From contig CAVQEQ010000004.1 in the NCBI GenBank assembly GCA_963711565.1, forward strand, positions 1,024,001-1,088,000: a DNA stretch of 64,000 bases, read 5' to 3'. Origin of the DNA: an uncultured delta proteobacterium (GTDB lineage Bacteria > Desulfobacterota > Binatia > Binatales > Binataceae). Position 1 is the first letter of the stretch; each line of letters starts with the position of its first letter. The translations under genes and the position numbers were made by a program. Below are positions 6,595 through 59,413 of the stretch, one piece after another. The notes under the pieces are model-generated. The model had not been told where the DNA came from and did not search any database. It worked only from the letters and a program-made list of their open reading frames with translations.

Positions 6595-7074
6595 CTATTG
6601 CGCCGGTGCGCCGGGCGGCGCGGCATGTTGTACCGGCATTACTCGCAATTTCACGAGGCAGGGCGGACCGTCGTCGCCGTAGCATAGGTTGCTGACTTCG
6701 CCGAGTCGGGAATTGCGATCGTCGTGCGTGTAATCGGGACAGATCCAATGGCCGCCTTCGCGGTAAAGCGCGACCGCGAAATATTGGCCAGTCGCGAGAT
6801 TCCCGGACACCGGCGCGCCACCGGACGAGACCGGCCGCGTGTCAACAATGTCGAAACCGTCGTGCGCGGCATCGGGCGAATACTGCATGAAGAACATTCG
6901 CCATTGCCGTCCCGGAAGCGCGGTCACCTGGTATTCCATCGCGTGATTGTACGAGAAGACCGGCTTGTCGCGGCATAGCCACGGCCGCGCCTCTTGCGCC
7001 GACGCCGATGCTGCGGTCAGCGCCGCTATCGCCGCCGCGATCGAAAAGCATGTTGCAGCTTTTAGAATTTTCAT
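6595..7074 (-). CDS. Hypothetical secreted protein
   Basis: Signal peptide ending ASASA; 4 Cys in mature part; start overlaps mutase stop. Confidence 0.7.
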   Translation of the reverse strand: MKILKAATCFSIAAAIAALTAASASAQEARPWLCRDKPVFSYNHAMEYQVTALPGRQWRMFFMQYSPDAAHDGFDIVDTRPVSSGGAPVSGNLATGQYFAVALYREGGHWICPDYTHDDRNSRLGEVSNLCYGDDGPPCLVKLRVMPVQHAAPPGAPAQ

Positions 7075-9011
7075 GACTGTTCCCGATCCGCGATCGCGAT
7101 GATGCGACCGATGATCTCGCCGAGGTTGGAGTCCTTGGGGGTGAAGACCGCTTTGACGCCGAGCGCGAGCAGGGCGGTGCGGTCGGCTTCGGGGATAATC
7201 CCGCCCATCACGAGCGCGACGTCGGCGGCGCCGCGACTCTTTAGCAAGTCGATCGTATCGCGCGCGATTGACATGTGTGCGCCGGCGAGACTCGAGATTG
7301 CGAGCACGTCAACGTCTTCCTCGAGCGCCGTCGCGACCATCTGCTCCGGCGTTTGCTTGAAGCCCGCGAGGACTACCTCCATCCCGGCTTGCATGCATGC
7401 GTGCGCGAGCAGCTTGATAGCGTTGATATGGCCGTCGAGGCCGGCCTTGCCGAGCGCGATGCGAATCTTCCGCTTCGCGACGGGCACTTTCAGCGCGCCG
7501 ACGCTCACGCTGGTTTCGAGAATCGGCGGCGTGTAGCGGCCGCGGCCGACGCGCACTAGTGAGTCGGTCCATTCGCCGACGGTGCCACCGGCGCGCGCGA
7601 GATCGATCGTCGCCTCGATCAGTCCGCTGCCGCCGTTATCCGCGCCTGCGCGTTCGAGCGCCTCGCGCGCTTTCGCAACGGCGGCCCGGTTGCGCGTCGC
7701 GCGCCATTTCTTGATCGATTCGATGCGTTCCTTTTCCTTCGACGCATCCGCGCCGTGGTCCGCATTCTGTTTCGGCGGCGGCGTGAGTCCGACTTCGCCG
7801 GTGAAGGCATTGACGCCGATCTGCACGATCTCGCCCGACTCGACTTTGCGATGACGCTCGGCCAGCTGGCGCGTCAGCTCGCCGCTGACGATTGAAATTG
7901 CGCGCGAGTAGCCCGCCTCGCGCGTGCGGATCGCGATTTCGCGCGCGCGCGTCGCGGTCTCGTCGGTGAGCTTCTCGATAACCTTGCTGCCCTCGAAAAT
8001 ATCGCCGTAGCCCGCCAGCCCGGTCTCATACATGAGAACCTGCTGCGTGCGGAGGCTGAGCGTCTGCTCGGACTGGTCGGGCAGACTGAGTGCCTCGCGA
8101 AAGCCTGGCAACTGCAGCGCGTTAACGCGCGCGTCGGCCGACAGCACGACCGGCAGCGCCTCATATGCGATGCGAATAATGTTCACCTCAGGCTGCGGCT
8201 CGGTGAGCGTGAGCGATCGCACCTGGCATCCGGCGCGGAAAGCGACGTCATTGACGCCGTACTCGCTGGCGCATAGCTCACGCCAGAGTTTGAAGTACGC
8301 GCGAATCTTGCAAATCTCGGGGACCAGCTCGATGCCGCTGTTGATAAAAAATGAAATGCGGCGGACGGTTTGCTCGAAAGCGGCCGCGTCGAGCTTGGGA
8401 CGGATCGCGTCGAGAATCAGCAGCGCGTTGCCGAAGGCGTAGCCGATTTCCTCGGCGGGACCGGCGCCGCTCTCCATGTAGTGGTAGCCGCAACAGTTGA
8501 TCGGATTCCAGTTGGGCACGCGCTCCACGGCGAAACGAATCAGCTCGGTCGAGAGGCGAAACGACAGCTCGGGATGAAAAATCGAAGTGCCGCGCGCGAC
8601 GAATTCCTTCAGCAGATCGTTCTGCGTCGTGCCGCGCAGCTCGGACCACGGCACGCCATGCTTTTCCGCGACGACCAGGTACAGCGCGAGGACGAACGGC
8701 GCCGTCGCGTTAATCGTCATCGAGGTGTTGATCGACTGAAGCGGGATGCCCTCGAAGAGTCGCTCCATGTCATCCCAGTGGCAGATCGAAACTCCCGCTT
8801 CGCCGACCTCGCCGCGCGCGACCGGAGCGTCGGGGTCGTAGCCGTTTTGGGTGGGTAGGTCGAACGCGATCGAAAGGCCGCGCTGGCCCTGCTTCAAGTT
8901 CGCGAGGAATCGCTCGTTGGCCTGGCGCGCATCGCCGAAGCCGGCGTAAGTGCGGATGATCCACGGCTCGCGAGGCACGCGGGATTTTTTCTCAGCTTCC
9001 GGCATCGACAC
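7071..9011 (-). CDS. B12-dependent acyl-CoA mutase, ethylmalonyl-CoA mutase (Ecm/MeaA)-like
   Basis: PWIIRTYAG, GLSIAFDLPTQ, NTSMTINA, GTTQNDLLKE, C-terminal GLDGH B12-binding domain, SSLAGAH. Confidence 0.88.
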   Translation of the reverse strand: MSMPEAEKKSRVPREPWIIRTYAGFGDARQANERFLANLKQGQRGLSIAFDLPTQNGYDPDAPVARGEVGEAGVSICHWDDMERLFEGIPLQSINTSMTINATAPFVLALYLVVAEKHGVPWSELRGTTQNDLLKEFVARGTSIFHPELSFRLSTELIRFAVERVPNWNPINCCGYHYMESGAGPAEEIGYAFGNALLILDAIRPKLDAAAFEQTVRRISFFINSGIELVPEICKIRAYFKLWRELCASEYGVNDVAFRAGCQVRSLTLTEPQPEVNIIRIAYEALPVVLSADARVNALQLPGFREALSLPDQSEQTLSLRTQQVLMYETGLAGYGDIFEGSKVIEKLTDETATRAREIAIRTREAGYSRAISIVSGELTRQLAERHRKVESGEIVQIGVNAFTGEVGLTPPPKQNADHGADASKEKERIESIKKWRATRNRAAVAKAREALERAGADNGGSGLIEATIDLARAGGTVGEWTDSLVRVGRGRYTPPILETSVSVGALKVPVAKRKIRIALGKAGLDGHINAIKLLAHACMQAGMEVVLAGFKQTPEQMVATALEEDVDVLAISSLAGAHMSIARDTIDLLKSRGAADVALVMGGIIPEADRTALLALGVKAVFTPKDSNLGEIIGRIIAIADREQS

Positions 9012-9045
9012 AAGGTTAGTTATCGAAGCCTCGGGATTCCAGCTA

Positions 9046-9062
9046 GCGGGAAGGGGGACCGG
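9046..9062 (-). repeat. Degenerate partial copy of repeat family B
   Basis: Reverse complement CCGGTCCCCCTTCCCGC equals 49656-49672. Confidence 0.55.
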
Positions 9063-9065
9063 TCG

Positions 9066-10025
9066 TCAGCGCCGATGCGCCGCGCGGGCTGGGAGTTCCT
9101 GGTCGCGATGGCGGGCGAGGTCGGAGGCGAGGGTATCGATCAATTCGATTCCCGAGAGGCCGCTATGCTCGGCGATTTCGACGACGGGGCGGCCGGTCTC
9201 CGTGCGGATTTTTGCGATTGCTTTGCGCGCTTCCGCTGCGCGATTCAGTTCCGATTTTGCCAGCTCGGCCAGGTGCTCGAGGTCCTTCTTGCGGAGATGA
9301 GGGCCGCGCCGAGTTGTCAGCGCCGATATGTCGGCGGCATCGAATTCTGACGGCGGCATCCGATTGAAAAGTACGGCGGCCGGCGTCAGATGGATTTCAG
9401 TCAGCTGAGCATGCATCTCTATCGTTTCGGAAATCGAAAGAGAGTCGGCGGTGGTGACCTGGATGATTGCGCAATTGCGCCGATCGCGCAGCATCTGCGA
9501 GATGTTGCGCGCTTCCTTGCCGACGACGCTGTCGCCGAAGGTCGAGCGCGCCGCGGTCGGCATCTTGAGCAGGCTCATCGCCTGCCCGCTCGCGGGCGCG
9601 TCAACGATTATCACGTTGCTGGCGGGCGCCTTCGGATCGTTTCGCCCGGCGTCATAGAAGACTTTCCCGAGCATCATCAGTTCGCGCAGGCCCGGCGCGG
9701 CTTGTACGAAAAATTGATAGAGGCGGCTGGCGAAGACCGCCTTCAACAGCATCCGGCCCGGTACGACCAGGTGCAGATATTCTTCGAGTGCGGCGCGGCC
9801 GTCGAGCGTCATAAGCGCGAGATCGTGCGCGACAATCGTCGGCACGAATGACGGCTTGACGCCGAAGGTCGCCGCCAGCGGCGCGCGCGCGTCGCATTCC
9901 ATTATCAGCGCGCGCGAGCCTGACAGTGTCGCTAGCCTGGCGAGCGCGGCGCTGAGAGTAGATTTGCCGACGCCGCCCTTGCCGAGCACGATCAGCACGC
10001 GGCGGCCGAGGATTTCGTTTAGCAT
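9066..10025 (-). CDS. ArsA/Get3-related P-loop ATPase
   Basis: Deviant Walker A GKGGVGKS, APGLREL, IIVDAPASG. Confidence 0.85.
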   Translation of the reverse strand: MLNEILGRRVLIVLGKGGVGKSTLSAALARLATLSGSRALIMECDARAPLAATFGVKPSFVPTIVAHDLALMTLDGRAALEEYLHLVVPGRMLLKAVFASRLYQFFVQAAPGLRELMMLGKVFYDAGRNDPKAPASNVIIVDAPASGQAMSLLKMPTAARSTFGDSVVGKEARNISQMLRDRRNCAIIQVTTADSLSISETIEMHAQLTEIHLTPAAVLFNRMPPSEFDAADISALTTRRGPHLRKKDLEHLAELAKSELNRAAEARKAIAKIRTETGRPVVEIAEHSGLSGIELIDTLASDLARHRDQELPARAAHRR

Positions 10026-10036
10026 TTGCGGGGAGG

Positions 10037-10076
10037 AACCTAACCTCTAACCCCTTCCCATAGTCGGAAGGGGAAC
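10037..10076 (-). repeat. Repeat family B (hairpin plus GGGGTTAGGGGTTAGG tail), reverse orientation
   Basis: Reverse complement GTTCCCCTTCCGACTATGGGAAGGGGTTAGAGGTTAGGTT matches 34712-34750. Confidence 0.85.
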
Positions 10077-10091
10077 CTGTCAGTAAGAAAA

Positions 10092-11069
10092 TTACCAGCG
10101 GACCAGGTTTGCTCCCCAGGTGAGGCCGCCGCCGCATGCGTTCAGCATCACGATGCTGCCGTCGTGGATACGGCCTTGCTCGAGTGCTTCGTCGAGCGCG
10201 ATTGGCACGGACGCGGCCGAAGTGTTGCCGTAGCGATCAATATTCGTGAAGACTTTTTCCGGCGGCATCCCGAGCCGCTCCGCGACCGCCGAAATAATTC
10301 GCATGTTAGCCTGATGCGGCACGAACAGGTCGATGTCCTCGAGCTTGACGCCCGCGCGCTCGGCAACGAGGCGGCTGACATCCTCCATGCTCTTGACAGC
10401 GATCTTGAAAAGCTCGGGACCCTTCATCTGAATCGCGTCATCGGGGGAGCGCCGCACTTCCGAATCGATCGTGCTGCGGGTTCCGGTCGAGCGGACGGAG
10501 AGCAGCGTCCAATGCTCGCCCGATGAGCGCAGCAGGCTCGACAGCACCCCGCGATTTCCCGGCTCGGTGACCATCACGCATGCGCCCGCGCCGTCGCCAA
10601 ACAGTACTGCCGTGCGGCGATCGTTCCAATCGACCATCGTCGAGAGCGCGTCCGCGCCGACTACGAGTACACGCTTGAAATCGCCGGCGCGCATCTGGGC
10701 GTCGGCGACTTGAACCGCGTACACAAAGCCGGAGCATGCGGCGGCAACGTCGAAGGCGGGTATCGTCGAGATGCCGAGGCCGTACTGAACCTGGCAGGCG
10801 AAGGAGGGGAAGCCGTACTCGGAGGAAACGGTGCCGACGATGATCGCGTCGAGGTCGGACGGCTTGACGCCGGCGCGATCCAGGGCGATACGGCTGGCGT
10901 CGGTCGCGATCAGCGCGAGCGATTCGCCCTGGCGCATCAGGTAGCGCTGGCCGATGCCGGTGCGCGAGCGGATCCATTGATCGGACGTGTCCATGTACCG
11001 CTCGAGATCGTTGTTGGTCAGCGCGGTGCGCGGTACGGCCCGTCCGGTAGCGACAATTCTTGAGCCCAT
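10092..11069 (-). CDS. fabH: 3-oxoacyl-ACP synthase III
   Basis: DTSDQWIRSRTGI, AACSGF, LFGDGAGA, PHQAN, GNTSAAS. Confidence 0.95.
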   Translation of the reverse strand: MGSRIVATGRAVPRTALTNNDLERYMDTSDQWIRSRTGIGQRYLMRQGESLALIATDASRIALDRAGVKPSDLDAIIVGTVSSEYGFPSFACQVQYGLGISTIPAFDVAAACSGFVYAVQVADAQMRAGDFKRVLVVGADALSTMVDWNDRRTAVLFGDGAGACVMVTEPGNRGVLSSLLRSSGEHWTLLSVRSTGTRSTIDSEVRRSPDDAIQMKGPELFKIAVKSMEDVSRLVAERAGVKLEDIDLFVPHQANMRIISAVAERLGMPPEKVFTNIDRYGNTSAASVPIALDEALEQGRIHDGSIVMLNACGGGLTWGANLVRW

Positions 11070-11098
11070 GTTGAAACCAGTGAAAGAGTTAGCTCTGG

Positions 11099-12346
11099 TT
11101 AGGCGGGCCTGAAGGCCAGCGTCGTGTTGGTGCCGCCGAAGCCGAACGAATTATTCAGCGCGATGCGAATTGTCTTGGCGCGCGGCTTGTTCGGCACGTA
11201 GTCGAGGTCGCATTGGGGATCGGGGACTTCCTGGTTGATAGTCGGCGGCATCATCCTGCGATCGATCGCGAGCACCGTGTACACCGACTCGATTGCGCCG
11301 GCCGCGCCGAGCGTGTGCCCGGTCATCGACTTGGTCGAACTGATCGAAAGTTTTGCCGCGCGCTCGCCGAAGACGTGCTTCACCGCTTGAGTCTCGGCGA
11401 GGTCGCCCTGCTCGGTCGAAGTGCCGTGAGCGTTGATGTAATCGACCTCGTTGGGATCGAGGTCGCTGTCTTCGAGGCACATCCGCATGCACTTGGCGGC
11501 GCCGCGTCCCTCGGGCGCGGGCGACGTGATGTGATAGGCGTCGCTGTTGGCGGCGTAACCGCAGATCTCCGCGATGATCTTCGCGCCGCGCTCGATTGCG
11601 GCGTCGCGCTCCTCGAGGATCAGCGCGGCCGAGCCTTCCGACATCACAAATCCGTCGCGCTCCTTGTCGAACGGGCGGCTGGCTTTCGCGGGCTCTTCGT
11701 TGCGCGTCGAGAGCGCCCGCATCGCGACGAATCCGCCGACGCCGAGCGAAGTGATCGCCGCCTCCGAGCCGCCGGTGATCGCGGCGTCGAGGTAGCCGAG
11801 CCTGATCATGCGGTACGCCTCGCCGATCGCATGGCTGCCCGACGCGCACGCACTGGTGGTGGCAAGGTTGGCGCCGCGCGCGCCGTAGCGAATCGAGATC
11901 TGACCGGGCGCCAGGTTGCTGATCAGCTTGGGGATGAAAAACGGGGTGACGTGGCGCAGCCCGGTTTCGATGAAGACCTTGTGGTACTCCTCGATGGTGC
12001 AGAGGCCGCCGATGCCGACGCCGATCAGTACGCCGACGTTGTCGGCATTGTCTTCGGTGATTTTGAACCCCGACTGGCGCATCGCCTGCTCGGCCGACGC
12101 GACCGCGTACTGGATGAAGGGGTCCATCTTTTTGATGTCGCGTTTTTCGATCCAATCCTCGGGATTGAAATCCTTCACCTCGCCTGCGATGCGGGCGGGA
12201 AATTCCGAGGCGTCGAAGCGCGTAATCAGGCCGATACCGGATCGCCCCGCCATCAGGGCGTCCCAGTTCTTCTCCACTCCAACTCCGAGTGGAGTTACCA
12301 GACCGACTCCGGTGACCACCACGCGGCGCTCAAGCATTCGTCTCAT
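11099..12346 (-). CDS. fabF: 3-oxoacyl-ACP synthase II
   Basis: RRVVVTG, SACASG, DAYHIT, NAHGTST, KSMTGH, NSFGFGG; start chosen by GAGGGG RBS. Confidence 0.95.
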   Translation of the reverse strand: MRRMLERRVVVTGVGLVTPLGVGVEKNWDALMAGRSGIGLITRFDASEFPARIAGEVKDFNPEDWIEKRDIKKMDPFIQYAVASAEQAMRQSGFKITEDNADNVGVLIGVGIGGLCTIEEYHKVFIETGLRHVTPFFIPKLISNLAPGQISIRYGARGANLATTSACASGSHAIGEAYRMIRLGYLDAAITGGSEAAITSLGVGGFVAMRALSTRNEEPAKASRPFDKERDGFVMSEGSAALILEERDAAIERGAKIIAEICGYAANSDAYHITSPAPEGRGAAKCMRMCLEDSDLDPNEVDYINAHGTSTEQGDLAETQAVKHVFGERAAKLSISSTKSMTGHTLGAAGAIESVYTVLAIDRRMMPPTINQEVPDPQCDLDYVPNKPRAKTIRIALNNSFGFGGTNTTLAFRPA

Positions 12347-12531
12347 CAGGCCCCTCATCCTCCATCGAATTCAACTTTAATCATCTATCAAAAAGCAGTG
12401 CCGGTCGAGAATCAGATCCACCTTCTTCCCACATTCGCCGTATCTGTGCATGGGGATTCCGCTAAGGATGGAAATAGTAATTAGACACCCCCTTATGGGT
12501 GCGCTAGGCTGGCCGACAAGAGTTCCTGCGA

Positions 12532-16897: not shown

Positions 16898-17000
16898 AGT
16901 GGGGCGGGCCGCCGTGCCCGCCCTCTCTGGGATTTTCCTAGCAGACAATTGAGTAAGGTGAGTCACTGGCCGGATGGCGGGCACGGCGGCCCGCCCCACT
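16898..17000. repeat. REPIN-like element (family D): perfect 25-bp inverted repeats around a 53-bp spacer
   Basis: AGTGGGGCGGGCCGCCGTGCCCGCC at 16898-16922 and its reverse complement at 16976-17000. Confidence 0.9.
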
Positions 17001-49415: not shown

Positions 49416-49445
49416 CGCGCCACCTTCATCCTTATACCTCCTGCT

Positions 49446-49697: not shown

Positions 49698-49716
49698 CCT
49701 GAGCATCACAACCACC

Positions 49717-50112: not shown

Positions 50113-50152
50113 AGTCACACCTCCTACAAATTAATCCGTGCGTTATCTCCTA

Positions 50153-50211
50153 ACACTGGGTGCAGGGCTCAGCCCTGCCCAGGGAAGCGTGAAACCCAGG
50201 AGGGGTTTCAC
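50153..50211 (-). repeat. Repeat family C
   Basis: GGGTGCAGGGCTCAGCCCTGCCCAGGGAAGCGTGAAACCCAGGAGGGGTTTCAC. Confidence 0.88.
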
Positions 50212-50225
50212 ATTCAATTAGTTCC

Positions 50226-50954: not shown

Positions 50955-51031
50955 GGTGTCCTTCCCTTTGTGAAATTGTTGCAGTTAACCCTGATCTTTG
51001 ACTCAAATCTGTATATTGCCGCCGCCGCCAG

Positions 51032-51613
51032 TCAACGCAGCCCGGATGCTGCCGTGCGCGCGACTTTTACCCGCGATGTACCGCGCCGCTTAAGCTGTAT
51101 TTCACGCTTCAACTGCGCGCAAAGCCGCGCCAGCGCCCGCGCCTTGGCATCGACGATCTCGCGCCCAAGCTCCAACACCATTCTCCGCACCGGACTCGCA
51201 CCCGCGCGGCGCATCTCGGCCACCATCTCTGCCAGTATCGCCGTGCGCGCCACATCGTCGCGCCGCGACCGCTCCAGATGCTCGAGCGCGATCTCGGGCT
51301 CGCGGTCCGCAAAATAAACCTTCACCTGCGACTCGTCGAATACGAACAGCGGCTGCGCCGGCTCGCGCAGCATCCGCATAAAATGCGCCCGGCCGCGCGG
51401 CGTGATCGCATAAACCTTGCGCGCGCGCCGCCCATGCCGTTCCGTCCGCAGCTTGACGTGTCCGTCGTGCGCCAGCTTCTTCAACGCGGGATAAATCGAT
51501 CCGTCGCTGACCCGGTAAAAGAACCCGACCGGGTCCTGGAACCGCTGCTTCAGGTCGTAACCAGTCGCCTCCGCCTCCATCAAAAACCCGAGGATCGGAA
51601 ACTTCACATCCAT
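51032..51613 (-). CDS. PadR family regulator
   Basis: ILGFL..TGYDLK, GSIYPALKKL, KVYAITPRG. Confidence 0.9.
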   Translation of the reverse strand: MDVKFPILGFLMEAEATGYDLKQRFQDPVGFFYRVSDGSIYPALKKLAHDGHVKLRTERHGRRARKVYAITPRGRAHFMRMLREPAQPLFVFDESQVKVYFADREPEIALEHLERSRRDDVARTAILAEMVAEMRRAGASPVRRMVLELGREIVDAKARALARLCAQLKREIQLKRRGTSRVKVARTAASGLR

Positions 51614-51725
51614 CCGCGGCGGCGTCTTCTCGAATTCCAGGACCGACCTGGCCGGAAACAACTGCGCGCCGCCACGATATCCGTTCAGCGATATAAACGA
51701 CACCTCACGCATACCCATCGAGCCA

Positions 51726-51751
51726 ATAGCTCGACTTGAGCTATGAGTCAA
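51726..51751 (-). promoter_or_regulatory. Candidate promoter with palindromic operator for the PadR/ABC operon
   Basis: Minus-strand TTGACT followed by perfect palindrome ATAGCTC-N5-GAGCTAT (51726-51744). Confidence 0.55.
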
Positions 51752-51754
51752 CAA

Positions 51755-52276
51755 TCAGGGTGCAGCAGTATGACTGCGGATCGCTCGGCCAAGATTGCTC
51801 GACCCCGCCAGCGGCGCGACCCGCGCCCCGATAGCCGCCAACTCCCGCATCCGCGCCGGCTCGGGCTCCGTCCCAAACACCACATCCCAGAGCCGCGTCG
51901 TCACCCCGAAAATCGCGTCCGGCTCTGCCACATGATGCGCCAGATGCCGCGCGCGCAGCCGCGCCTCAACCTCGAACAACCGCGTCGCGAAATGAATCCG
52001 GTAATGTACGTACTCATACACCGCGAACCCCGCGACGATCCCGCCATAAAAGACCACGCCAGGCGCCAAACCAAACCACGCAAGCGCGCTGGCTAGCACC
52101 AGCGCAGTAGGAATCCACGCACCCAACGCAAAAACCGCGCGAGGATCGCGATGGTGCACGTCATGCAGCGGCGTCACGAACGTCCGATGCGCATGCCCGA
52201 GGACGCCATGAATGACGTATTCGACCAACGTCCACGCGAACAGCCCCGCCGCGAAAATCAGCAAATCGAGCAGCAT
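51755..52276 (-). CDS. Sterol desaturase/fatty acid hydroxylase family protein
   Basis: EYVIHGVLGH, HDVHH, YEYVHYRIH, HLAHH, FGVTTRLWD..GT. Confidence 0.88.
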   Translation of the reverse strand: MLLDLLIFAAGLFAWTLVEYVIHGVLGHAHRTFVTPLHDVHHRDPRAVFALGAWIPTALVLASALAWFGLAPGVVFYGGIVAGFAVYEYVHYRIHFATRLFEVEARLRARHLAHHVAEPDAIFGVTTRLWDVVFGTEPEPARMRELAAIGARVAPLAGSSNLGRAIRSHTAAP

Positions 52277-52350
52277 CTGGCCTGATCGTAATTCCGTTTC
52301 GTACCGGTAATCAACGCAGCGCTCGGCTTGCAGGCCCCGTCTTTCGGGCC

Positions 52351-52385
52351 TTGACACCCTATTCAAGGATTGGAATACTCCAATC
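52351..52385 (+). promoter_or_regulatory. Sigma70 promoter with overlapping palindromes upstream of the carotenoid oxygenase
   Basis: TTGACA-N17-AATACT; TATTC-N8-GAATA and GATTGGA-N4-TCCAATC. Confidence 0.55.
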
Positions 52386-52409
52386 TTGTAGCGGGAGGAA
52401 TAAAGCGAA

Positions 52410-53777
52410 ATGAACGATTCTGCCAATCCATACCTGACCGGCAACTACGCACCGTGGCGCGAAGAGGGCGACGCCTTCGATCTCGAGATCGAAGGCGAGC
52501 TGCCGCGCGAGCTCAACGGCGCGCTCTATCGAATCGGGCCGAACCCGCACTTCAAACCGCTCGGCCGCTACCATTGGTTCGACGGCGACGGGATGGTCCA
52601 TGCGTTCATCCTGCGCGACGGCCGCGCCGCCTATCGCAATCGCTACGTCCGCACCGACGGCCTCAAGGCCGAGATGAAGAATGGGCGCGCGCTCTTCGGC
52701 GGATTGCTCGGCACCCCGCGCGAGATGCCGCCGGATATGCCGCCCTTCAAGAACGCCGCCAACACCAACATCATCGGCTACGCCAGTCGCCTGCTCGCGC
52801 TGTTCGAGGCCGCGTCGCCGCACGAGCTCAAGCCGCTCACGCTCGAGACCGTCGGCCTGTTCGATTTCGGCGGCAAGCTCACCGGCCCCGTCACGGCGCA
52901 TCCGAAGTTCGATCCCGTCACCGGCGACTTGCTGTTCTTCGGCTACCAGCCTTTTCCGCCGTACGTGACGTGGTATCGCGCCAGCAGCGACGGCAAGCTG
53001 CTCGAGTCGCGCCCGATCGACACCGGCCTGCCCGTGATGATGCACGACTTCATCGCGACCGACGACTACGCGATCTTTTTCGTGTGCCCCTCTGTGTTCC
53101 ATCTCGAGAACGCGGCCGCGGGCAAACCGATGCTCAACTGGGAGCCGCAACACGGCACGAAGATCGGCGTGATGAACCGCAAGACCGGCGACGTGAAATG
53201 GTTCCAGGACGAAGCGTTCTACGTCTTCCACTTCCTCAATGCCTACGCGGAGAACGGCTCGATCGTTGTTGACGGCTGCCGGATGCGCTCGCTCGACATG
53301 ACCGGCAATTCCTTCGGCGGCAATCCGCCGCTGACCTGGCGATGGAATCTGAATCTGAAAGAGGGCTCGATGAGCCAGCGGCAGATCGATGACGTCTCGA
53401 ACGAGTTCCCGCGCTTCGACGAGCGCCTTGCCGGCCGCAAGCATCGCTACGGTTACTTTGCCGGCGGCAATCCCGGCTCGCCCGAGAAGGACACGAACTT
53501 CAAGGCTCTACTCAAGCGCGACTACCAGACCGACAAGGTCGAGGTTCACGACCTCGGCAAAAACTTTGCGCCCGGAGAGCCGGTGTTCGTGCCGCGCAAT
53601 GCGAGCTCGGCCGAAGACGACGGCTGGATTCTCGCGGTCTGGTACGACGCGGCGCTCAATCGCAGCGAGATGGTTGTGCTCGACGCGGATAACTTCGCGG
53701 GCGCTCCCGTCGCGCGGATCAAATTGCAGCATCGCGTGCCGTGGGGCTTTCATGGCAACTGGGTGTCCGCGCAATGA
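52410..53777 (+). CDS. Carotenoid cleavage oxygenase/lignostilbene dioxygenase family protein
   Basis: GPNP, WFDGDGM, four Fe-binding His (TAHP, MHDF, FHFLN, FHGNW), EFPR, EPVFVP, EDDG. Confidence 0.93.
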   Translation: MNDSANPYLTGNYAPWREEGDAFDLEIEGELPRELNGALYRIGPNPHFKPLGRYHWFDGDGMVHAFILRDGRAAYRNRYVRTDGLKAEMKNGRALFGGLLGTPREMPPDMPPFKNAANTNIIGYASRLLALFEAASPHELKPLTLETVGLFDFGGKLTGPVTAHPKFDPVTGDLLFFGYQPFPPYVTWYRASSDGKLLESRPIDTGLPVMMHDFIATDDYAIFFVCPSVFHLENAAAGKPMLNWEPQHGTKIGVMNRKTGDVKWFQDEAFYVFHFLNAYAENGSIVVDGCRMRSLDMTGNSFGGNPPLTWRWNLNLKEGSMSQRQIDDVSNEFPRFDERLAGRKHRYGYFAGGNPGSPEKDTNFKALLKRDYQTDKVEVHDLGKNFAPGEPVFVPRNASSAEDDGWILAVWYDAALNRSEMVVLDADNFAGAPVARIKLQHRVPWGFHGNWVSAQ

Positions 53778-54529
53778 AGAAGGCGGTGCGTTCGACCGCG
53801 GTACCGATTCGCAAACGCGCACGCGATGTTCCGCGTGAAGCTCCGAACGATGGGCTCGGCTACCTGCGGTTTCCCACCAGGAAGGCGTCGCTCGATCTCG
53901 CACTGCTCGGATTGATCGCGGAAGTCCCTGGCGTGTCCGGCTACGACATCATGAAGATCTTCGATCTGTCGATGGCGCATTACTGGCACGCGCAGCCGAC
54001 GCAGATCTACCCGACGCTCGATCGGATGGAGGAGTTCGGGCTGATCAAGAGCCGCAACGTCGTGCAGCGCAATCGGCCCAACAAGCGCCTCTACACGATC
54101 ACGCCGGCGGGCGAGCGAGTGCTGATCGAATGGCTAGAGAGTCCGTTCGAGGGAATCAACCTGAAGCATCCGCCGCTGCTGCGATGCCGCTTCCTGGGAC
54201 ATCTCGGCGCCGACGGCGCGATCGCGGTTCTCAAGGAAGAGCGGCGGTCGTGGGCGATTCATCTGAAGCGCTACCGCGAGCTGGAAAAGAACTACTTCGC
54301 CGACGGCAAGGGCTATCGCAACGTCAACGCGATGTTCTCGATGTTCACGCTCAGGCGCGGCATCGACTGGATGGAAGAGAACATCCGATGGTGCGATTGG
54401 ACGATGAGCGAGATCGACCGTAATCGCGCACTGTTCCCGGCCGAGAGCACGAAGGCCGCGTTGAAACCACTCATCCCATTCGATCCAATCCGCCACGGCC
54501 AGACCGCGCGAAGAAAAGCCGCCATCTAA
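53774..54529 (+). CDS. PadR family regulator
   Basis: SGYDI, QIYPTL, RPNKRLYTITPAG; ATGA overlap with the oxygenase. Confidence 0.9.
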   Translation: MKKAVRSTAVPIRKRARDVPREAPNDGLGYLRFPTRKASLDLALLGLIAEVPGVSGYDIMKIFDLSMAHYWHAQPTQIYPTLDRMEEFGLIKSRNVVQRNRPNKRLYTITPAGERVLIEWLESPFEGINLKHPPLLRCRFLGHLGADGAIAVLKEERRSWAIHLKRYRELEKNYFADGKGYRNVNAMFSMFTLRRGIDWMEENIRWCDWTMSEIDRNRALFPAESTKAALKPLIPFDPIRHGQTARRKAAI

Positions 54530-54535
54530 TCTAAG

Positions 54536-54592
54536 GTGAAACCCACCGTGGGTTTCACGCTTCCCTGGGCACGGGTAACCCCTGCACCTTAG
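54536..54592 (+). repeat. Repeat family C, opposite genomic orientation
   Basis: GTGAAACCCACCGTGGGTTTCACGCTTCCCTGGGCACGGGTAACCCCTGCACCTTAG. Confidence 0.88.
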
Positions 54593-54620
54593 CGTAACCT
54601 TTTCGGGGCATTGCGGTTTC
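54593..54620 (+). promoter_or_regulatory. Candidate ECF autoregulatory promoter
   Basis: CGTAACC -35 element directly upstream of the ECF gene; -10 element uncertain. Confidence 0.35.
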
Positions 54621-54715
54621 TGTAGATAGAGGCTGATGTGTCCCCGCGAGCTGTATCCTTATATGCGCGCTCTGCTGCGCGCGCGATCGGTCATCCCAAT
54701 ACGCGGGAGGGTGGG

Positions 54716-55294
54716 TTGAAGGCGCGGGTGGCGGCGAAAGTCGATGCCGACTACTCGGCTGAGCGCGCGCTGATTGAGGCGGCGCAGCGGGAGCGGGGGC
54801 GGTTTGCCGATTTGTATGAGGCCAACTTTGAGCGGGTTTATGCGTATGTCGTGCGGCGGGTGAGGGATCGGGACGAGGCGCAGGACGTTACCGCCGATGT
54901 TTTTCATCTGGCCCTGAAAAGTTTGCCGCGGTTTGAATGGCGCGGGGTGCCTTTCGCGGCCTGGCTTTTCAGGATCGCTGCCAACGAAATAGCTGATCGA
55001 TCAAAGAGCATCGCCAAGCGCCGGGCGCATGAGCGCGAGGCACTATTCGAGACGCCGGACGAACACGGCGGAGTCGCGGCGGGGTTTGAAGAGGCGGAGC
55101 GGCGGGGGCGATTGTTCAAGCTCGTCGAGCGGCTGCCGCGCGATCAGTCGCGCGTGATCGTGATGCGATTTGCCGAGCAGAAGTCGATTCGCGAAATCGC
55201 GACTGCGCTCGGGCGATCCGAGGGCAGTATCAAGCAGCTTCAATTCCGCGCCATGCAGAATTTGCGGGTGCGGTTGGGTGATTCGAATGGCTAA
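54716..55294 (+). CDS. ECF-type RNA polymerase sigma factor
   Basis: FADLYE, EAQDVTADVF, FAAWLFRIA, LPRDQ..SIREIA..LG; TTG start after GGGAGG (alternative start 54638). Confidence 0.92.
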   Translation: MKARVAAKVDADYSAERALIEAAQRERGRFADLYEANFERVYAYVVRRVRDRDEAQDVTADVFHLALKSLPRFEWRGVPFAAWLFRIAANEIADRSKSIAKRRAHEREALFETPDEHGGVAAGFEEAERRGRLFKLVERLPRDQSRVIVMRFAEQKSIREIATALGRSEGSIKQLQFRAMQNLRVRLGDSNG

Positions 55295-56810
55295 GGGGAA
55301 ACTGATCGAACAACTGGACCATGCGGTGGAGGCGATCATGGCGAAGCCAGATGCGTCGCTGCCCACGGCCGATCCGCGGCTGGCGGGGATTTTGCGGATC
55401 GCGGGCGAGTTGCGGGATTTGCCGCGCGCCGATTTCAGGGATCGTCTCAAGGCGGACCTTGCCGCCCAATCGAAGGAGCTTGAACCGTCGGCGCCCGGCG
55501 GCAAGCCGCTGTTCACTCATGAGGAGATAGAAGCGCGGCTGAAGGAATTGGCCGCCCAGCCGAAATTTATCGTGCATGACGTGCGCGCCGCGCTGAGCGA
55601 TTTGCCCCAGATGTCGATGCGCTTCCTCGATTCGATGAACAATCATCTGCTGATCGCGTCGCGCGGCGACAAGCGCACGCATTGGGAGCGCCATTTCGGG
55701 TCCGACGAGATGATCTACGTGATGGACGGTGAGACCGACGTCGTCACGTTGACCGACGGCGGGCCGGTCGAATCGACGATTCATGCTGGGTCGTTGTTCG
55801 TGTGTCCCGAGGGATTGTGGCATCGCCTGACGCCGCGGCCGTTCGTGTCCGCATTCTACCTGACGCCGGGCAACACGGCGGGCTCGGCCGCCAAGGATCC
55901 GCGACCGAAGAATGAGCGCGTCGCGAGAAGGCAGGTACGCAGGGGAACTGCCGCGAGGCTTAAGGAGCATGACCTGCGCGCGGCGCTCCGCGAGGTGCCG
56001 CATCTGAATATCACGGCGGACACGACCGCCCAGGAAGCCAATGCGGCAGTGCGCAACGTCGCGAAGATCGGAAATCTGACGCTGGGCGTGATGAGCTATA
56101 CCGGCTTGACGCCGTGGGAGCGGCATCCCGACGGCGACGAGCTGTTGCTGGCGCTTGATGGCGAGCTCGAAGTGACGGTGCTGACGGACGAGGGCCCGGT
56201 GACGCGGAAACTACGCGCGGGCGAGGCGTTCGTGTGTCCGCAAGGCTTGTGGCATCGGCAACTCGCGGCAAAATCGGTGTCGATGCTCTACGGGACGCCA
56301 ACCGACACGACCGAGATTTCGATGGCGGACGATCCTCGCGTCGAGAAAAAGGAAGCCGGCGCGGCGGCACCGGGAGTTGCACGGAGCATCATGCCGTTCC
56401 TGAATATTGAGGGCGTGGCCAGCGCGGTGGAATTCTACAAGAGCGTGTTTGGCGCGTCGGTACTGATGCGCGATGAGGAGCCGAGCGGGATCGTGAGCCA
56501 TGCGATGCTCAAGCTGGGCGACACGACGGTCATGCTGTCGGATCCGACGTCGGCGGACGTGAAGCAGAACGACGTGCATCACCTGTCGCGCTCGCCGCGA
56601 TCGTACGGCGGCTCGCCGGTGCAACTGTATATTTATGTCGCCGACACCGACGACGTTGTCCGGCGCGCGGTTGCGGCCGGCGCGAAGATTATTGACCCGG
56701 TGGAAGATCGGGACTGGGGCGACCGCTGCGGCGGGATCGAGGACCCATACGGTCACGTGTGGTTTGTTGGGACGCCGCTGAAGGACGTGCCGCCGAAGGA
56801 TTCGAATTAG
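55287..56810 (+). CDS. Putative anti-sigma domain + cupin + cupin + VOC (PhnB-like) fusion protein
   Basis: N-terminal LAGILRIAGELRDLPRADFRDRL; two WERH..DE..G..CP.GLWH cupin repeats; C-terminal AVEFYKSVFGA..DWGDRCGGIEDPYGHVW. Confidence 0.85.
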   Translation: MAKGKLIEQLDHAVEAIMAKPDASLPTADPRLAGILRIAGELRDLPRADFRDRLKADLAAQSKELEPSAPGGKPLFTHEEIEARLKELAAQPKFIVHDVRAALSDLPQMSMRFLDSMNNHLLIASRGDKRTHWERHFGSDEMIYVMDGETDVVTLTDGGPVESTIHAGSLFVCPEGLWHRLTPRPFVSAFYLTPGNTAGSAAKDPRPKNERVARRQVRRGTAARLKEHDLRAALREVPHLNITADTTAQEANAAVRNVAKIGNLTLGVMSYTGLTPWERHPDGDELLLALDGELEVTVLTDEGPVTRKLRAGEAFVCPQGLWHRQLAAKSVSMLYGTPTDTTEISMADDPRVEKKEAGAAAPGVARSIMPFLNIEGVASAVEFYKSVFGASVLMRDEEPSGIVSHAMLKLGDTTVMLSDPTSADVKQNDVHHLSRSPRSYGGSPVQLYIYVADTDDVVRRAVAAGAKIIDPVEDRDWGDRCGGIEDPYGHVWFVGTPLKDVPPKDSN

Positions 56811-56829
56811 GGGAAAAAGGAGAACAGCG

Positions 56830-57315
56830 ATGGCGAAAAAAGTGAAAATGATGCCCGACGGTTGGCATAACGTGACACCGTTCCTGAGCGTCAACGATGC
56901 GGCGCGCGCGGTCGAGTTCTATCGCAAGGCCTTCGGCGCGACCGAGTTGGAGCGCATGGCTGAACCGGACGGGAAGGTAAATCACGCGGTGCTGAAAATC
57001 GGCGACTCGATCGTAAGACTCTCGGACGACAGCTCCAAACACGCAGCGGAGTGGGTGGCGAAGGGCTGGTCGCGCAGTCCAAAATCGCTGGGCGGCACGC
57101 CGGTACACTTTTATGTTTACGTCGAGGACTCGGACGCGGTATTTAAACGTGCAATCGCCGCAGGCGCAAAAGTTATGGAGCCGGTGGTGGACAAGGAGTG
57201 GGGCGACAGGGTTGGGTCACTCACAGATCCTTTCGGACACATCTGGCTGGTCGCGACTCACAAAAGGGACGTGTCGTTTAAGGATGTCGTGAAGCTTCGC
57301 GCGGCCAGATCGTGA
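56830..57315 (+). CDS. VOC (PhnB-like) family protein
   Basis: VTPFL, AVEFYRKAFGA, WGDRVGSLTDPFGHIW. Confidence 0.9.
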   Translation: MAKKVKMMPDGWHNVTPFLSVNDAARAVEFYRKAFGATELERMAEPDGKVNHAVLKIGDSIVRLSDDSSKHAAEWVAKGWSRSPKSLGGTPVHFYVYVEDSDAVFKRAIAAGAKVMEPVVDKEWGDRVGSLTDPFGHIWLVATHKRDVSFKDVVKLRAARS

Positions 57316-57357
57316 AGCAGATCGTGGACGTGGACTGAGAGGAGCGGCGAACGCAAA

Positions 57358-58926
57358 ATGAAAATCTCCCGCATCATCGCAATCGGTCTAGCGGTCCTGT
57401 TCATCCTTTTGATCGCGCGCCTGAACCATGAGGAAAACGGCGGGCCGCCGCATGCGTTCGTGATGCTGCCCGGACAGGAGCCGGCGACCCTTTATCTGCC
57501 GGGGCCGGGGCATCCGTTCTATACGCTGTTTCCCAAACCGGTAGCGGAGCGGCCGCCGGCGGTCGTGCTGATTCACGGCTTCACCGGCGATCGCGTGTTG
57601 ATGAGCGGGCTCGCGCGGCGGCTGGCGGAGAATGGGTACGCGGTGCTGGCGATCGACGTTCACGGACACGGCGAGAATCGCAATCCGTTCAACAGCGGCG
57701 AAGCCCAGAACGACAGCCTGCGCGGGGACGTTAAGAATGCGGTCGATTTTCTTCGCGGCAGCCAATTCGTGGACGGATCGCGAATCGTCGTGATGGGGCA
57801 TTCGATGGGCGCGGGCGCGGCGCTCGACTACGCGACGAACGATCCAAGTGTCAAAGGCGCGGTGATGATTTCCGGCGGCTGGACGATGGGTCCCGAGCGT
57901 CCGAAGAACGCGCTGTTCATTTTCGCCCAGAATGACCCGGTCGAGGGAATCCAGGACACATCCACAGCAATCGCGGCGCATCTGGCGGGCGTCGAGCAGA
58001 TCGAACTTGGCAAGACCTACGGCGATTTCACGCAGAGCACCGCGGTCGAGGCGATCCGAATGCCGGGGCTCAATCACATAACGATCGTCAGCTCGCCGGC
58101 AGCCGCGACGGTCATCGTAAAATGGCTCGACAGTACATTTGGAACCGCGAGAACGGGCGCGATCGAAGTTAAAGACGCGCGTCGTGGATCGGCGAGATTC
58201 GCGCTGCTGGTGTTTGTGATCCTGCTGATTCCGATCGGCCGGTTTTGCGGCTCGATAGCGCCGGGCTGGGCGCAGGCGCGGCCGGGACCGAGCGGTTGGG
58301 CAGGACTGCTGATACTCGGTGGCGCACTGCTCGCGGCGATGCCACTGGCGGCGGCGAACCCGGCGTCGTTCGTGCAGATCATCGTGGGCGACATTCAGAT
58401 CTCATGGTTTGCGATCGCCGGGCTGATCATGCTCGGTGTGATCGCGCTGTGGCACCTGGCTGTCTGGGAGCATATCCGCGACGGCGCGGGCGCTGCGGTG
58501 CTGGCCGGCGCGGCGGGATTCACGGTCGCGTATGTGTGCCAGGTCGCGATGTCCCCGATGCTGCATCACCTGTCGTTGTCGCCCGAGCGGCTGATGGTGC
58601 TGGCGATGGCCACGGTGCTGATGTTCCCGTTCTGGATCAGTTTCGAGCTGCTGGTGCGGCGCGGCGGTCTCGCGATTTCGACGATGTGGGCGGTGCTCGG
58701 GCGTCTGCTGATCCTCATTCTGATGGCGGTGGGTGTCAGCCTGAACGTGTTGCCGGGCGTACTGATGCTAGTCCTGCCGATCATAGGAGTGGGCTTCGTG
58801 CTGATCGAAATCCTCTCGGCGTCGGCATACAGCGCGTCGCGCAATCTGCTGCTGATCGCAGTCGCCGAAACGATCTGGTTCGCGTGGATGATCGCGGCTG
58901 CAAGCCCGATCACTTTTATGTTCTAG
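57358..58926 (+). CDS. Membrane alpha/beta hydrolase with multi-TM C-terminal domain
   Basis: HGF, GHG, GHSMGA nucleophile elbow; hydrophobic C-terminal half. Confidence 0.85.
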   Translation: MKISRIIAIGLAVLFILLIARLNHEENGGPPHAFVMLPGQEPATLYLPGPGHPFYTLFPKPVAERPPAVVLIHGFTGDRVLMSGLARRLAENGYAVLAIDVHGHGENRNPFNSGEAQNDSLRGDVKNAVDFLRGSQFVDGSRIVVMGHSMGAGAALDYATNDPSVKGAVMISGGWTMGPERPKNALFIFAQNDPVEGIQDTSTAIAAHLAGVEQIELGKTYGDFTQSTAVEAIRMPGLNHITIVSSPAAATVIVKWLDSTFGTARTGAIEVKDARRGSARFALLVFVILLIPIGRFCGSIAPGWAQARPGPSGWAGLLILGGALLAAMPLAAANPASFVQIIVGDIQISWFAIAGLIMLGVIALWHLAVWEHIRDGAGAAVLAGAAGFTVAYVCQVAMSPMLHHLSLSPERLMVLAMATVLMFPFWISFELLVRRGGLAISTMWAVLGRLLILILMAVGVSLNVLPGVLMLVLPIIGVGFVLIEILSASAYSASRNLLLIAVAETIWFAWMIAAASPITFMF

Positions 58927-58936
58927 GAGACAGCTT

Positions 58937-59413
58937 ATGGCGGACAAATTGGATCCGATTCCGGTCGGGCCGCGCGCGATCACCGCATACCTGACAATCA
59001 AGGGCGCGGCGCAGGGAATTGAATTTTACAAGAAAGCATTCGGCGCGAAGGAGTTGATGCGCTGGACCGGGCCGGACGGAAGAGTGGGGCATGCCGAAGT
59101 CGAAATCAGCGGTACCCCGGTGTTCCTCAGCGACGAGCATCCCGAGATGGGCGTGGTCAGTCCGCAGACGCTGGGCGGGACCTGCGTCGGACTCCATCTG
59201 CTGGTCGAGGATGCGGACGCGACCTTCAAGCGGGCAATTGCGGCGGGCGGAAGGGCGATCAAGCCGATGGAAGACGAGCCGTGGGGTCAGAAGTCGGGAA
59301 CGCTGCAGGACCCGTTCGGGCATCGATGGTTCGTCACGCAGCGCACGGCGGAACTGTCGGTGGACGAGATGAACAAGATCGGCAAAGCCGCCGGCTACAA
59401 GACGCTCAGCTGA
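58937..59413 (+). CDS. VOC (PhnB-like) family protein
   Basis: IEFYKKAFGA, LSDEHP, DPFGHRW. Confidence 0.9.
   Translation: MADKLDPIPVGPRAITAYLTIKGAAQGIEFYKKAFGAKELMRWTGPDGRVGHAEVEISGTPVFLSDEHPEMGVVSPQTLGGTCVGLHLLVEDADATFKRAIAAGGRAIKPMEDEPWGQKSGTLQDPFGHRWFVTQRTAELSVDEMNKIGKAAGYKTLS

What the first reader, a model, noticed from the sequence alone, without database searches (positions are those of the whole stretch)
7000..59400. Multi-kb strand-composition domains whose polarity matches the orientation of intergenic repeats
Judged by eye, not computed. The + strand is G-rich at about 7-12 kb, C/A-rich at about 33-54.5 kb and G/T-rich from 54.6 kb. Gene direction does not explain this: minus-strand fabF uses C-ending codons, while minus-strand nadA, the ABC permeases and the VOC gene use G/T-ending codons, and the + strand ACAD in the same domain is very C-rich. 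The bias looks strongest next to repeats (40860-41310, 44900-45140, 47640-47800, 49720-50110, 54700-54960). All four family B copies and four family C copies in the C-rich domain share one orientation. B copies at 9046/10037 and the C copy at 54536, where the skew flips, are inverted. B copies point opposite ways in two different minus-strand operons, so B follows skew rather than transcription. Inference: the repeats may be oriented nicking or strand-displacement sites (for example for an HUH/RAYT or Vsr/DUF559-type nuclease encoded elsewhere) that imprint local strand-asymmetric mutation.
Basis: partly seen in the sequence, partly recalled or inferred. Interest (0 to 1): 0.75.

Follow-up and report, generated by a model that had tools for sequence, protein, structure and literature searches.

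The report
Sawtooth strand skew with oriented repeats
In this soil bacterium and its relatives, stretches of 5-20 thousand bases carry far more C than G on one DNA strand whichever way the genes point, hairpin repeats inside them mostly face the same way, and all ten clusters of a chromosome-segregation-type sequence sit at C-to-G switches, which likely marks many local starting points of DNA copying instead of one.

Summary
The domains are real. After removing gene strand, fourfold-site G-C skew is -0.34 at 32-52 kb (the most negative 20 kb in the genome), +0.16 at 7-12 kb and +0.25 at 54.6-59.4 kb; A/T skew is about 0. Genome-wide, repeat orientation predicts the sign irrespective of transcription or replichore. 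DUF559, RAYT and GIY-YIG genes lie between inverted copies of several repeat families. The domain is conserved in six congeners and still accumulating, chiefly by C-G exchanges without a higher substitution rate; four repeat-free genomes show no domains. The repeats are not the whole cause: domains persist far from repeats, and relatives lacking a copy are already skewed. New here: the pattern is a sawtooth (18 sharp C-to-G jumps against 3); all 10 dispersed parS-type clusters sit at such steps (p<1e-5); the replichores carry almost no skew. Best reading (0.4, inferred): many local starts of DNA synthesis set the polarity, and nuclease-cut repeats are oriented by it and reinforce it. Unchecked notes of this scan report similar skew-repeat links in other genomes.

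The parts
7000..12400 (.). G-rich (+ strand) domain over four minus-strand genes (methylmalonyl-CoA mutase family, ArsA-family ATPase, an unscanned gene, ketoacyl synthase)
   Evidence: residual +0.159 for 7000-12000; genes positive in most of 7 genomes; families
9046..9060 (+). remnant: one arm of a family-B hairpin
   Evidence: sequence printed
10039..10073 (-). family B repeat (DUF559-linked hairpin plus tail), facing so as to predict a G-rich + strand
   Evidence: (I21)
16898..17000 (.). inverted pair of family E (RAYT-linked, GTGG-tagged) repeats; balanced, weak skew around it
   Evidence: (I8)
31900..53570 (.). C-rich (+ strand) domain, deepening towards its right edge; against the KOPS-defined replichore
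   Evidence: residual -0.336; conserved where aligned in six congeners; KOPS polarity
34716..34748 (+). family B repeat, predicts C-rich + strand
   Evidence: (D3)
35130..35443 (+). inverted pair of family A (DUF559-linked element ends, 35130-35385) followed by a family C hairpin (35422-35443)
40165..40250 (+). three family E repeats (RAYT-linked), all predicting a C-rich + strand
   Evidence: (D8)
41529..41594 (+). family O tail and family J (GTCAT-tagged) repeat, both predicting a C-rich + strand
44352..44384 (+). family B repeat after the acyl-CoA dehydrogenase gene
   Evidence: (D3), sequence
45165..45402 (+). inverted Q pair (45165-45288), then a family C hairpin with the D hairpin (to 45402)
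   Evidence: (D14)
47873..48244 (+). mosaic cluster: A pair, B, H hairpin, C
   Evidence: other families with the same net polarity fill this gap in congeners
49449..49695 (+). mosaic cluster: A pair and B
   Evidence: (D1)
50158..50211 (+). family C plus D double hairpin, last C-predicting copy before the jump
   Evidence: folding z -5.6
53540..53713 (.). sharp C-to-G jump (change point about 53570; -0.34 to +0.22): candidate local start of DNA synthesis; no parS-type site here
   Evidence: step 0.55
54536..54589 (-). inverted family C plus D double hairpin, facing the jump, predicts a G-rich + strand
   Evidence: (I3, I4)
53570..60400 (.). G-rich (+ strand) domain, fading by about 60.5 kb
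   Evidence: residual +0.225 for 53774-60400, +0.037 beyond

Best explanation
The chromosome is a sawtooth of strand-polar G/C domains that is likely laid down by bidirectional DNA synthesis starting at many local sites, some of them marked by dispersed parS-type sequences, and the hairpin repeats are likely oriented by that local direction and probably reinforce it where their nucleases would cut. Shown: the domains, their sawtooth shape, their continuing accumulation, the parS and repeat associations, the flanked nuclease genes. Inferred: that the jumps (in the window, about 53570) are starts of synthesis, the strand read 5'-3' away from a jump being the G-rich leading strand; that a repeat survives when its tagged, cleavable strand is the leading-strand template and is lost when it lies on the single-stranded lagging template; and that an occasional cut on the tagged strand causes resection 3' of the repeat and a restarted fork 5' of it, adding the local peak.
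For: Sharp C-to-G jumps outnumber G-to-C jumps 18 to 3 at threshold 0.3 (80 to 62 at 0.2), step skewness +0.4 to +0.5 for 4-8 kb steps, also in relatives, and after correcting for codon position. All 10 clusters of the parS-type palindrome sit at positive steps: mean +0.218, null SD 0.039, p<1e-5; +0.111, 8 of 10, p=0.001 after subtracting the repeat effect; p=2e-5 against repeat-near positions; 8 of 9 positive in relatives' stretches, some orthologous. A symmetric palindrome with an antisymmetric skew is what an origin gives. The jump with the strongest G-rich flank lies 2 kb from the three sites at the only parB locus and fades within 30-100 kb. Replichore skew is 0.008, and 0.004 away from repeats; cyanobacteria with irregular skew replicate from several sites (PMC7198777, passages). 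Repeats are 4-fold denser within 5 kb of parS-type sites and face them 61 to 24; different families agree in polarity within 6 kb (C against DUF559-type 67 of 88 and 57 of 75, about half beyond 12 kb). The oriented profile has a long plateau 5' and a short decline 3' of the tag. Substitution is ongoing and symmetric (favoured direction up, reverse down): log-likelihood about 140 better than a relic model and about 80 better than one-way extra mutagenesis. TnpA-REP and SsnA cut only the tagged single strand, and IS608-type excision prefers the lagging template (PMC3333891, PMC11893778, passages).
Against: No replication data exist here. KOPS-type octamers keep a two-arm polarity, also inside domains that oppose it (39 to 17), which fits an ordinary oriC-to-terminus layout. 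DnaA boxes lie beside dnaA, where the step is only 0.057. Genes are hardly co-oriented with local polarity (404 of 772) and tend to converge on the jumps. Only 3 of 29 sharp jumps are within 3 kb of a parS-type site, the window's is not, several have no marker, and no common initiator motif was seen. The exact palindrome was not found in 8 of 24 congeners searched. Isolated repeats have a nearly symmetric halo, and unrelated metagenome loci show a halo of only 2-4 kb, which fits a repeat-driven process as well. The parS link was found after the fact, among some twenty motifs looked at.
Confidence: 0.4

Rival explanations
1. The repeats are the primary cause: their nucleases nick the tagged strand, and nick-directed mismatch repair or recombination rewrites that strand from the other. 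Well-recognised mismatches (G:G, G:T, purine pairs) are resolved for the untagged strand and C:C escapes, so the tagged strand gains C; new repeats insert or survive in agreement with old ones.
For: All six substitution pairs are biased in the direction this predicts, C-G most (theta 1.65, then 1.22, 1.13, 0.61, 0.51, 0.41), with no rate increase; C:C is worst and G:G best repaired in E. coli (PMC3167615, passages); a pre-formed nick suffices to direct repair (PMC5416779, passages). MutL and MutS present, MutH and NucS not found in this 95% complete genome. Peak next to the repeat at fourfold sites (-0.16 at 60-200 nt 3') and in non-coding flanks (-0.16 and -0.13 within 40 nt); carriers of private copies gain skew; slope 0.61 within genes; predicted sign at DUF559-type repeats in unrelated metagenome contigs (+0.034+-0.014 within 2 kb).
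Against: Repair patches of hundreds of bases do not reach 5-14 kb; it does not predict the sawtooth or the parS steps; domains persist far from repeats; RAYT was found in only 4 of 24 congeners and no enzyme for family C; the characterised enzymes do not cut duplex DNA. The same spectrum would arise from leading-against-lagging repair differences.
Confidence: 0.25
2. ParB spreading or SMC loading at dispersed parS sites imposes a direction on repair or fork restart for 10-30 kb on each side, while bulk replication still runs from one origin; repeats follow that direction.
For: parS-type steps; no step at the DnaA boxes; intact KOPS arms; decay length similar to ParB spreading (recalled, not checked).
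Against: 26 of 29 sharp jumps are not within 3 kb of such a site; I know of no way for ParB or SMC to bias one strand; bulk oriC replication should leave replichore skew, and there is almost none.
Confidence: 0.15
3. One reading: nicking or strand displacement at the repeats exposes one strand, which collects extra deamination damage.
For: Two-fold sites shift to T and G on the G-rich strand; non-coding DNA in strong domains has TA skew +0.02 to +0.03; local peak at repeats.
Against: C-to-T is among the weakest terms and C-to-G the strongest; the rate terms are about zero or negative; the one-way model fits about 80 log units worse (fits stopped before full convergence); no A/T skew at fourfold sites.
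Confidence: 0.08
4. Strand selection during natural transformation: single-strand nucleases cut incoming DNA of one polarity near repeats, so one strand is the usual donor and mismatch-repair marker effects bias conversion.
For: SsnA acts this way in Neisseria; ComEC and DprA present; strain contigs are mosaic (0 differences in 2237 nt beside 20 in 763 nt).
Against: If cutting lowers integration, as in Neisseria, the tagged strand should end up G-rich, the opposite of what is seen (inference); the Ssn-type families have the weakest effect; it does not explain parS steps.
Confidence: 0.05
5. Ordinary causes: gene strand, replichore position, old inversions, selection on codons, or assembly error.
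For: Gene order is shuffled in 50-100 kb blocks among congeners; one octamer bias in this assembly does look like an artefact.
Against: Opposite-strand genes share the skew; domains lie inside conserved blocks; KOPS not inverted; relic model rejected; independent contigs match the C-rich domain letter for letter over 2237 nt.
Confidence: 0.02

Closest known systems
Replication-associated GC skew of bacterial replichores (review PMC3269016, passages read)
   Same: Strand-specific G over C at silent sites, independent of gene direction; C-to-G switch at the parAB-mnmG locus.
   Different: Amplitude up to 0.4 in 5-20 kb patches but 0.008 across the replichores; dozens of switches; no T over A at fourfold sites.
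Skew N-domains of mammalian genomes (mentioned in PMC3269016; details recalled) and multi-origin cyanobacteria (PMC7198777, passages read)
   Same: Sharp upward jumps with gradual decline; no two-arm GC skew although dnaA is present.
   Different: Teeth of tens of kb in a bacterium that keeps KOPS arms; jumps tied to parS-type sites and oriented hairpins; genes not co-oriented; initiation not measured.
REP/BIME/REPIN repeats with RAYT (TnpA-REP) (PMC3333891, passages read)
   Same: GTAG/GTGG-tagged hairpins, inverted pairs around a Y1 transposase gene (families E, L), mosaic intergenic clusters with fast turnover.
   Different: No link to strand skew found in my searches; most copies here belong to DUF559-linked or orphan families.
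NTS/SRM repeats with SsnA, GIY-YIG single-strand nucleases (PMC11893778, passages read)
   Same: GTCAT-tagged hairpins (F, J) around a single-domain GIY-YIG gene; orientation matters for cutting.
   Different: The paper has no occurrence of 'GC skew'; these families show the weakest skew here. DUF559 genes have the same repeat-gene-repeat layout, which that paper does not cover (no occurrence of 'Vsr').
parABS (PMC7383237, passages read)
   Same: The 14-base core equals the published consensus; three copies lie at the parB-parA locus.
   Different: parS is 'almost always' origin-proximal; here 10 clusters lie on three contigs and 16 sites around the single contig of G007, each tested cluster at a skew step.
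GRINS (PMC8256042, passages read)
   Same: Intense local skews in bacterial coding DNA, strongest at third positions, mechanism open.
   Different: GRINS are duplicated 0.3-1.4 kb gene segments with correlated GC and TA skews; these domains span many single-copy genes on both strands and lack TA skew.

Membership tests
Replichore GC skew | Sign constant along each arm, switching only at origin and terminus | tested here: not met
   29 sharp upward jumps; window domain opposes its arm
Replichore GC skew | G excess on the oriC-defined leading strand | tested here: not met
   0.008 overall, 0.004 more than 10 kb from repeats; arms assigned from KOPS counts and dnaA, C2 left out
N-domain / multi-origin skew | Sharp upward jumps, gradual decline | tested here: met
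   18 against 3; skewness positive in G000 and relatives
N-domain / multi-origin skew | Genes co-oriented away from the jumps | tested here: not met
   404 of 772 genes on the locally G-rich strand; mean direction convergent
N-domain / multi-origin skew | Replication starts at the jumps | not testable with these tools
   only assembled contigs available
REP/RAYT | Tagged hairpins in inverted pair around a Y1_Tnp gene | tested here: met
   families E and L, 2 of 2 genes
REP/RAYT | Same for family C/D/H | tested here: not met
   no nuclease gene between or recurrently beside copies (two of seven viral loci read)
REP/RAYT | Cleavage of the tagged single strand | not testable with these tools
   known for E. 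coli TnpA-REP only
SRM/Ssn | Single-domain GIY-YIG gene flanked by GTCAT hairpins | tested here: met
   C1:78255 on both sides, C1:417602 on one; 4 of 6 matches examined
parS | Match to the consensus palindrome and copies at parAB | tested here: met
parS | Confined to the origin region | tested here: not met
parS | Bound by ParB | not testable with these tools
   no binding data
GRINS | Correlated GC and TA skews | tested here: not met
   per-gene correlation of G-C and T-A residuals -0.12
GRINS | Skewed region is a duplicated coding segment | tested here: not met
   longest direct repeat in the window is 226 nt and intergenic; tested in the window only

The most novel reading that the evidence does not exclude
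Candidatus Binatus replicates a single bacterial chromosome from dozens of fixed secondary starts, a subset provided with their own parS centromere, while selfish hairpin-nuclease elements (RAYT, Ssn-type and an undescribed DUF559 class) read the local fork direction and feed back on it, so that the genome's silent sites record a multi-origin replication map.
Probability: 0.25. Interest if true: 0.93.

Novelty: new variant of a known kind. Interest (0 to 1): 0.78.

Why it matters
One origin per bacterial chromosome, and GC skew as its marker, are textbook assumptions. A lineage with no arm-scale skew but strong, conserved, still-growing sawtooth domains anchored at dispersed parS-type sites gives exact coordinates at which to test multi-origin replication, or else a new strand-biased repair process. 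It also gives testable substrates for DUF559 proteins (8 of 8 stand-alone genes lie between inverted hairpin-tail repeats) and shows that codon usage of ordinary genes can be set by position and strand over a few kilobases, which matters for codon-bias, origin-prediction and dN/dS work on such genomes.

Tried and rejected
Gene strand, transcription direction, replichore, inversions, relic skew and assembly error were tested and rejected. A purely symmetric halo (isolated copies) and a purely one-sided one both fail: both sides are skewed near the repeat. Copy age by mismatches to the commonest family-C form made no difference, so gave no time order. No dif-like site matched the recalled pattern. 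No cluster of three or more non-coding DnaA boxes passed the filter; looser matching finds boxes beside dnaA only. The cognate enzyme of family C was sought between inverted copies, among 1611 short frames beside copies and in viral contigs (7 loci, 2 read: prophage genes) without result. Families F and Q show no clear oriented skew, and P and K2 the opposite sign to my guess. Unpolarised differences in four public runs could not separate mutation from conversion. The planned test around solo DUF559-type repeats in a genome of another family (G031) was not done, so generality outside the genus rests alone. The octamer that looked replichore-polar is biased to the + strand of every contig and not in relatives and was dropped. 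Literature: nine answered searches for the link listed nothing describing repeat-oriented or parS-anchored local skew; subscription journals are mostly not covered, two recalled papers were not held, and no supplements were read.
Full report
Setting. The window is G000:C4:1024001-1088000 of a 4.84-Mb, four-contig genome. Record titles of genomes sharing its family-C repeat name Candidatus Binatus / Binataceae, so the genus is inferred from that. Genes were called with my own dicodon model (4193 genes); window products were checked against Pfam for 29 proteins. 'Residual' means G minus C at fourfold sites, minus the genome-wide sense-strand mean of that codon box, signed to the + strand.

Observation. 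Raw skew is -0.10 to -0.22 over most of 33-53 kb and +0.08 to +0.14 beyond 54 kb. Residuals are +0.159 (7-12 kb), -0.336 (31.9-52.3 kb) and +0.251 (54.6-59.4 kb), with raw AT skew about 0.01 in the last two.

Repeats and nucleases. Twelve intergenic families were defined from frequent words. Inverted copies flank 8 of 8 stand-alone DUF559 genes (A, B, K types; two or three read by eye from the printed flanks), 2 of 2 RAYT genes (E, L) and, on both sides, 1 of 4 GIY-YIG genes examined (F). One DUF559 gene lies about 6 kb left of the window. DUF559 was found in 22 of 24 congeners, RAYT in 4 of 24, the family-C pattern in 20 of 24 and in 0 of 16 other genera searched. No enzyme was found for C/D/H.

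Orientation predicts skew. Solo copies of C (139), D (75) and B (71) give z of 4-7 within 3-5 kb against random orientation; E, K, O and J give 2-4; F none. The strand carrying the GTGG/GTAG/GGTG tag, or the hairpin followed by its G-rich tail, is C-rich in the flanks; the sign of each family was chosen on this genome, so these z values are descriptive. The effect holds for genes on either strand, is unrelated to transcription (211 against 216) and to the KOPS-defined arms. A pooled profile explains R2 0.115 (shift null at most 0.016, ceiling about 0.65). With signs fixed, it predicts gene residuals in six congeners (r 0.26-0.66 over 400 kb each, centred on the window's orthologue and partly orthologous), in 75 of 80 family-C loci from other genomes that could be scored (-0.052+-0.018, 51 negative), and weakly in unrelated metagenome contigs (80 of at least 121 matches fetched, 2 duplicates dropped, 48 solo: +0.034+-0.014 within 2 kb in the predicted direction, -0.016+-0.015 at 4-6 kb; 30 paired loci about 0; raw skew without gene calls +0.011+-0.011). 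Four genomes of other families, 100 kb each, GC 65-72%, with 0-2 weak pattern matches, have SD 0.040-0.055 and no opposite-strand covariance; their higher GC and small samples limit this control.

Cause or marker. The window's domain is present in all six congeners where aligned, at fourfold identity 0.62-0.74, and weakest in G017, which has the fewest repeats there. Within 556 orthologous genes, change in predicted skew tracks change in observed skew (slope 0.61, 0.41-0.78). At 29 sites with a copy in one genome only, carriers show -0.117+-0.026, non-carriers -0.072+-0.023, non-carriers with no repeat within 5 kb -0.028+-0.017 (18 sites); private copies agree with their neighbours 19 to 6. 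At 18 sites with several carriers, often of different families, orientation agreed in 98% (smaller data set). Domains persist far from repeats (SD 0.07-0.08 against 0.13). So polarity usually precedes a given copy, and the copy goes with a modest further gain. Kin are not independent, so these intervals overstate certainty.

Substitution process. A non-reversible model on 60,032 fourfold sites of 386 genes in seven genomes, with polarity taken from neighbouring genes, gives on the G-rich strand C>G 1.65, A>G 1.22, T>G 1.13, C>A 0.61, C>T 0.51, T>A 0.41 per unit of polarity, and rate terms from +0.37 to -0.99. Negative log-likelihoods: asymmetric 214678, with rate terms 214664, relic 214816, one-way extra mutagenesis 214758; all fits were stopped by time, one root was tried, and only 21 genes fall in the two extreme classes. 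The bias is therefore ongoing and redistributes substitutions instead of adding them. It fits a mixture of fork directions, or strand-directed mismatch repair; MutS and MutL are present, MutH and NucS were not found.

Shape and anchors. After reading earlier notes of the scan I tested for a sawtooth: sharp C-to-G jumps outnumber the reverse 18 to 3, and 65 to 9 positions after codon-position correction, 45 to 10 in relatives. The oriented profile peaks 60-200 nt 3' of the tag (-0.16), reaches zero by 6-9 kb 3', and stays at -0.04 to -0.11 for 14 kb 5' (440 clusters); 63 isolated clusters are more symmetric. A palindrome whose core equals the published parS consensus occurs 15 times in 10 clusters on C1, C3 and C4; three copies lie at the single parB gene, beside genes I recognise from their sequences as parA and mnmG (names recalled, not scanned). 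All 10 clusters lie at positive steps (+0.218, p<1e-5; +0.200 without the parAB locus; +0.111, p=0.001, after removing the repeat profile), whereas hairpin clusters average +0.033. Repeats crowd around these sites (6.0 against 1.36 per 10 kb) and face them (61 to 24). G007, a single contig, has 16 exact sites around its whole length. The DnaA boxes beside dnaA, 35 kb from parB, show no jump (0.057), the arms show none (0.008), yet KOPS-type octamers keep two arms. Only 3 of 29 sharp jumps are within 3 kb of a parS-type site, and the window's jump (step 0.55) has none; it lies between a C/D copy facing right (50158) and one facing left (54536), and four relatives examined have a left-facing copy at the same place.

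Mechanism. A symmetric site with an antisymmetric, outward G-rich skew, a sawtooth, no arm-scale skew and no rate increase are together the footprint of bidirectional synthesis from many sites (inference; precedent in cyanobacteria). Because the characterised enzymes cut only the tagged single strand, copies whose tag lies on the lagging template would be lost, leaving the tag on the C-rich strand, as seen (inference). The peak beside the repeat and the extra skew in carriers suggest feedback by occasional cutting (inference). I put this at 0.4, repeat-driven strand-directed repair at 0.25, a ParB/SMC-directed process at 0.15, simple damage at 0.08, transformation donor choice at 0.05.

Standing. 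The pieces (REP/RAYT, Ssn, parS, replication skew) are known; their combination, the DUF559-flanking repeats and dispersed parS-type sites at skew steps were not found in nine literature searches. Papers were seen as passages only; no supplements were read. Unchecked notes of this scan describe repeat-oriented skew or sawtooth skew in other genomes; none of those listed for a parS query concerned a bacterial chromosome. They are leads, not support.

Noticed in passing
G000 C1:281466, 1108946-1109881; C3:131320, 1369608; C4:428872-428938, 579674-579853, 918338, 1142224, 1192888, 1504819-1504984: Fifteen parS-type palindromes in ten clusters spread over the chromosome, each cluster at a C-to-G skew step; exact pattern in 16 of 24 congeners and 1 of 16 other genera.
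   Followed up: yes
L003-L010 (G000 C1, C3, C4): Eight stand-alone DUF559 genes, each between inverted hairpin-plus-tail repeats (one with an internal stop, one apparently truncated): an IS-like repeat-gene-repeat layout parallel to RAYT and Ssn.
   Followed up: partly
window 44098 (acyl-CoA dehydrogenase 43190-44335): The gene is frameshifted in this assembly, but contigs of all four laid runs carry two extra bases there, so it is probably an assembly error.
   Followed up: partly
all four contigs of G000: CAACGTC-containing octamers are about twice as common on the + strand of every contig (for example 405 against 193) and not so in six relatives: likely a consensus artefact of the assembly.
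   Followed up: partly
G000 C4 near 1.3-1.35 Mb: KOPS-type octamers flip polarity here (likely terminus); no dif-like site matched the recalled pattern; to the right of dnaA on C1 the expected flip is not seen, on small counts.
   Followed up: partly
G031 C1:1561263-2996421: The last nine listed DUF559-type repeat matches of this genome of another family are all on the + strand, suggesting orientation by chromosome arm there.
   Followed up: no
G000 C3:329815-330850: A 250-aa HExxH protein gene lies between inverted C/H repeats, the only gene-sized inverted family-C pair in the genome.
   Followed up: no
G000 C4 about 1558-1562 kb; L408, L413: Mu-like prophage genes (terminase-, portal-like by my reading) carry host B, K and C repeats in this genome and in viral contigs.
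   Followed up: no
window 32501-52500: Contigs of other runs are mosaic against the window, from 0 differences in 2237 nt to 40 in 1541 nt, as expected from frequent recombination among strains.
   Followed up: no
window 41582-43087: A 1.5-kb stretch between repeats, holding the zinc-ribbon gene at 42374-42817, is covered in one run and nearly uncovered in three; one contig joins across it: a variable cassette.
   Followed up: no
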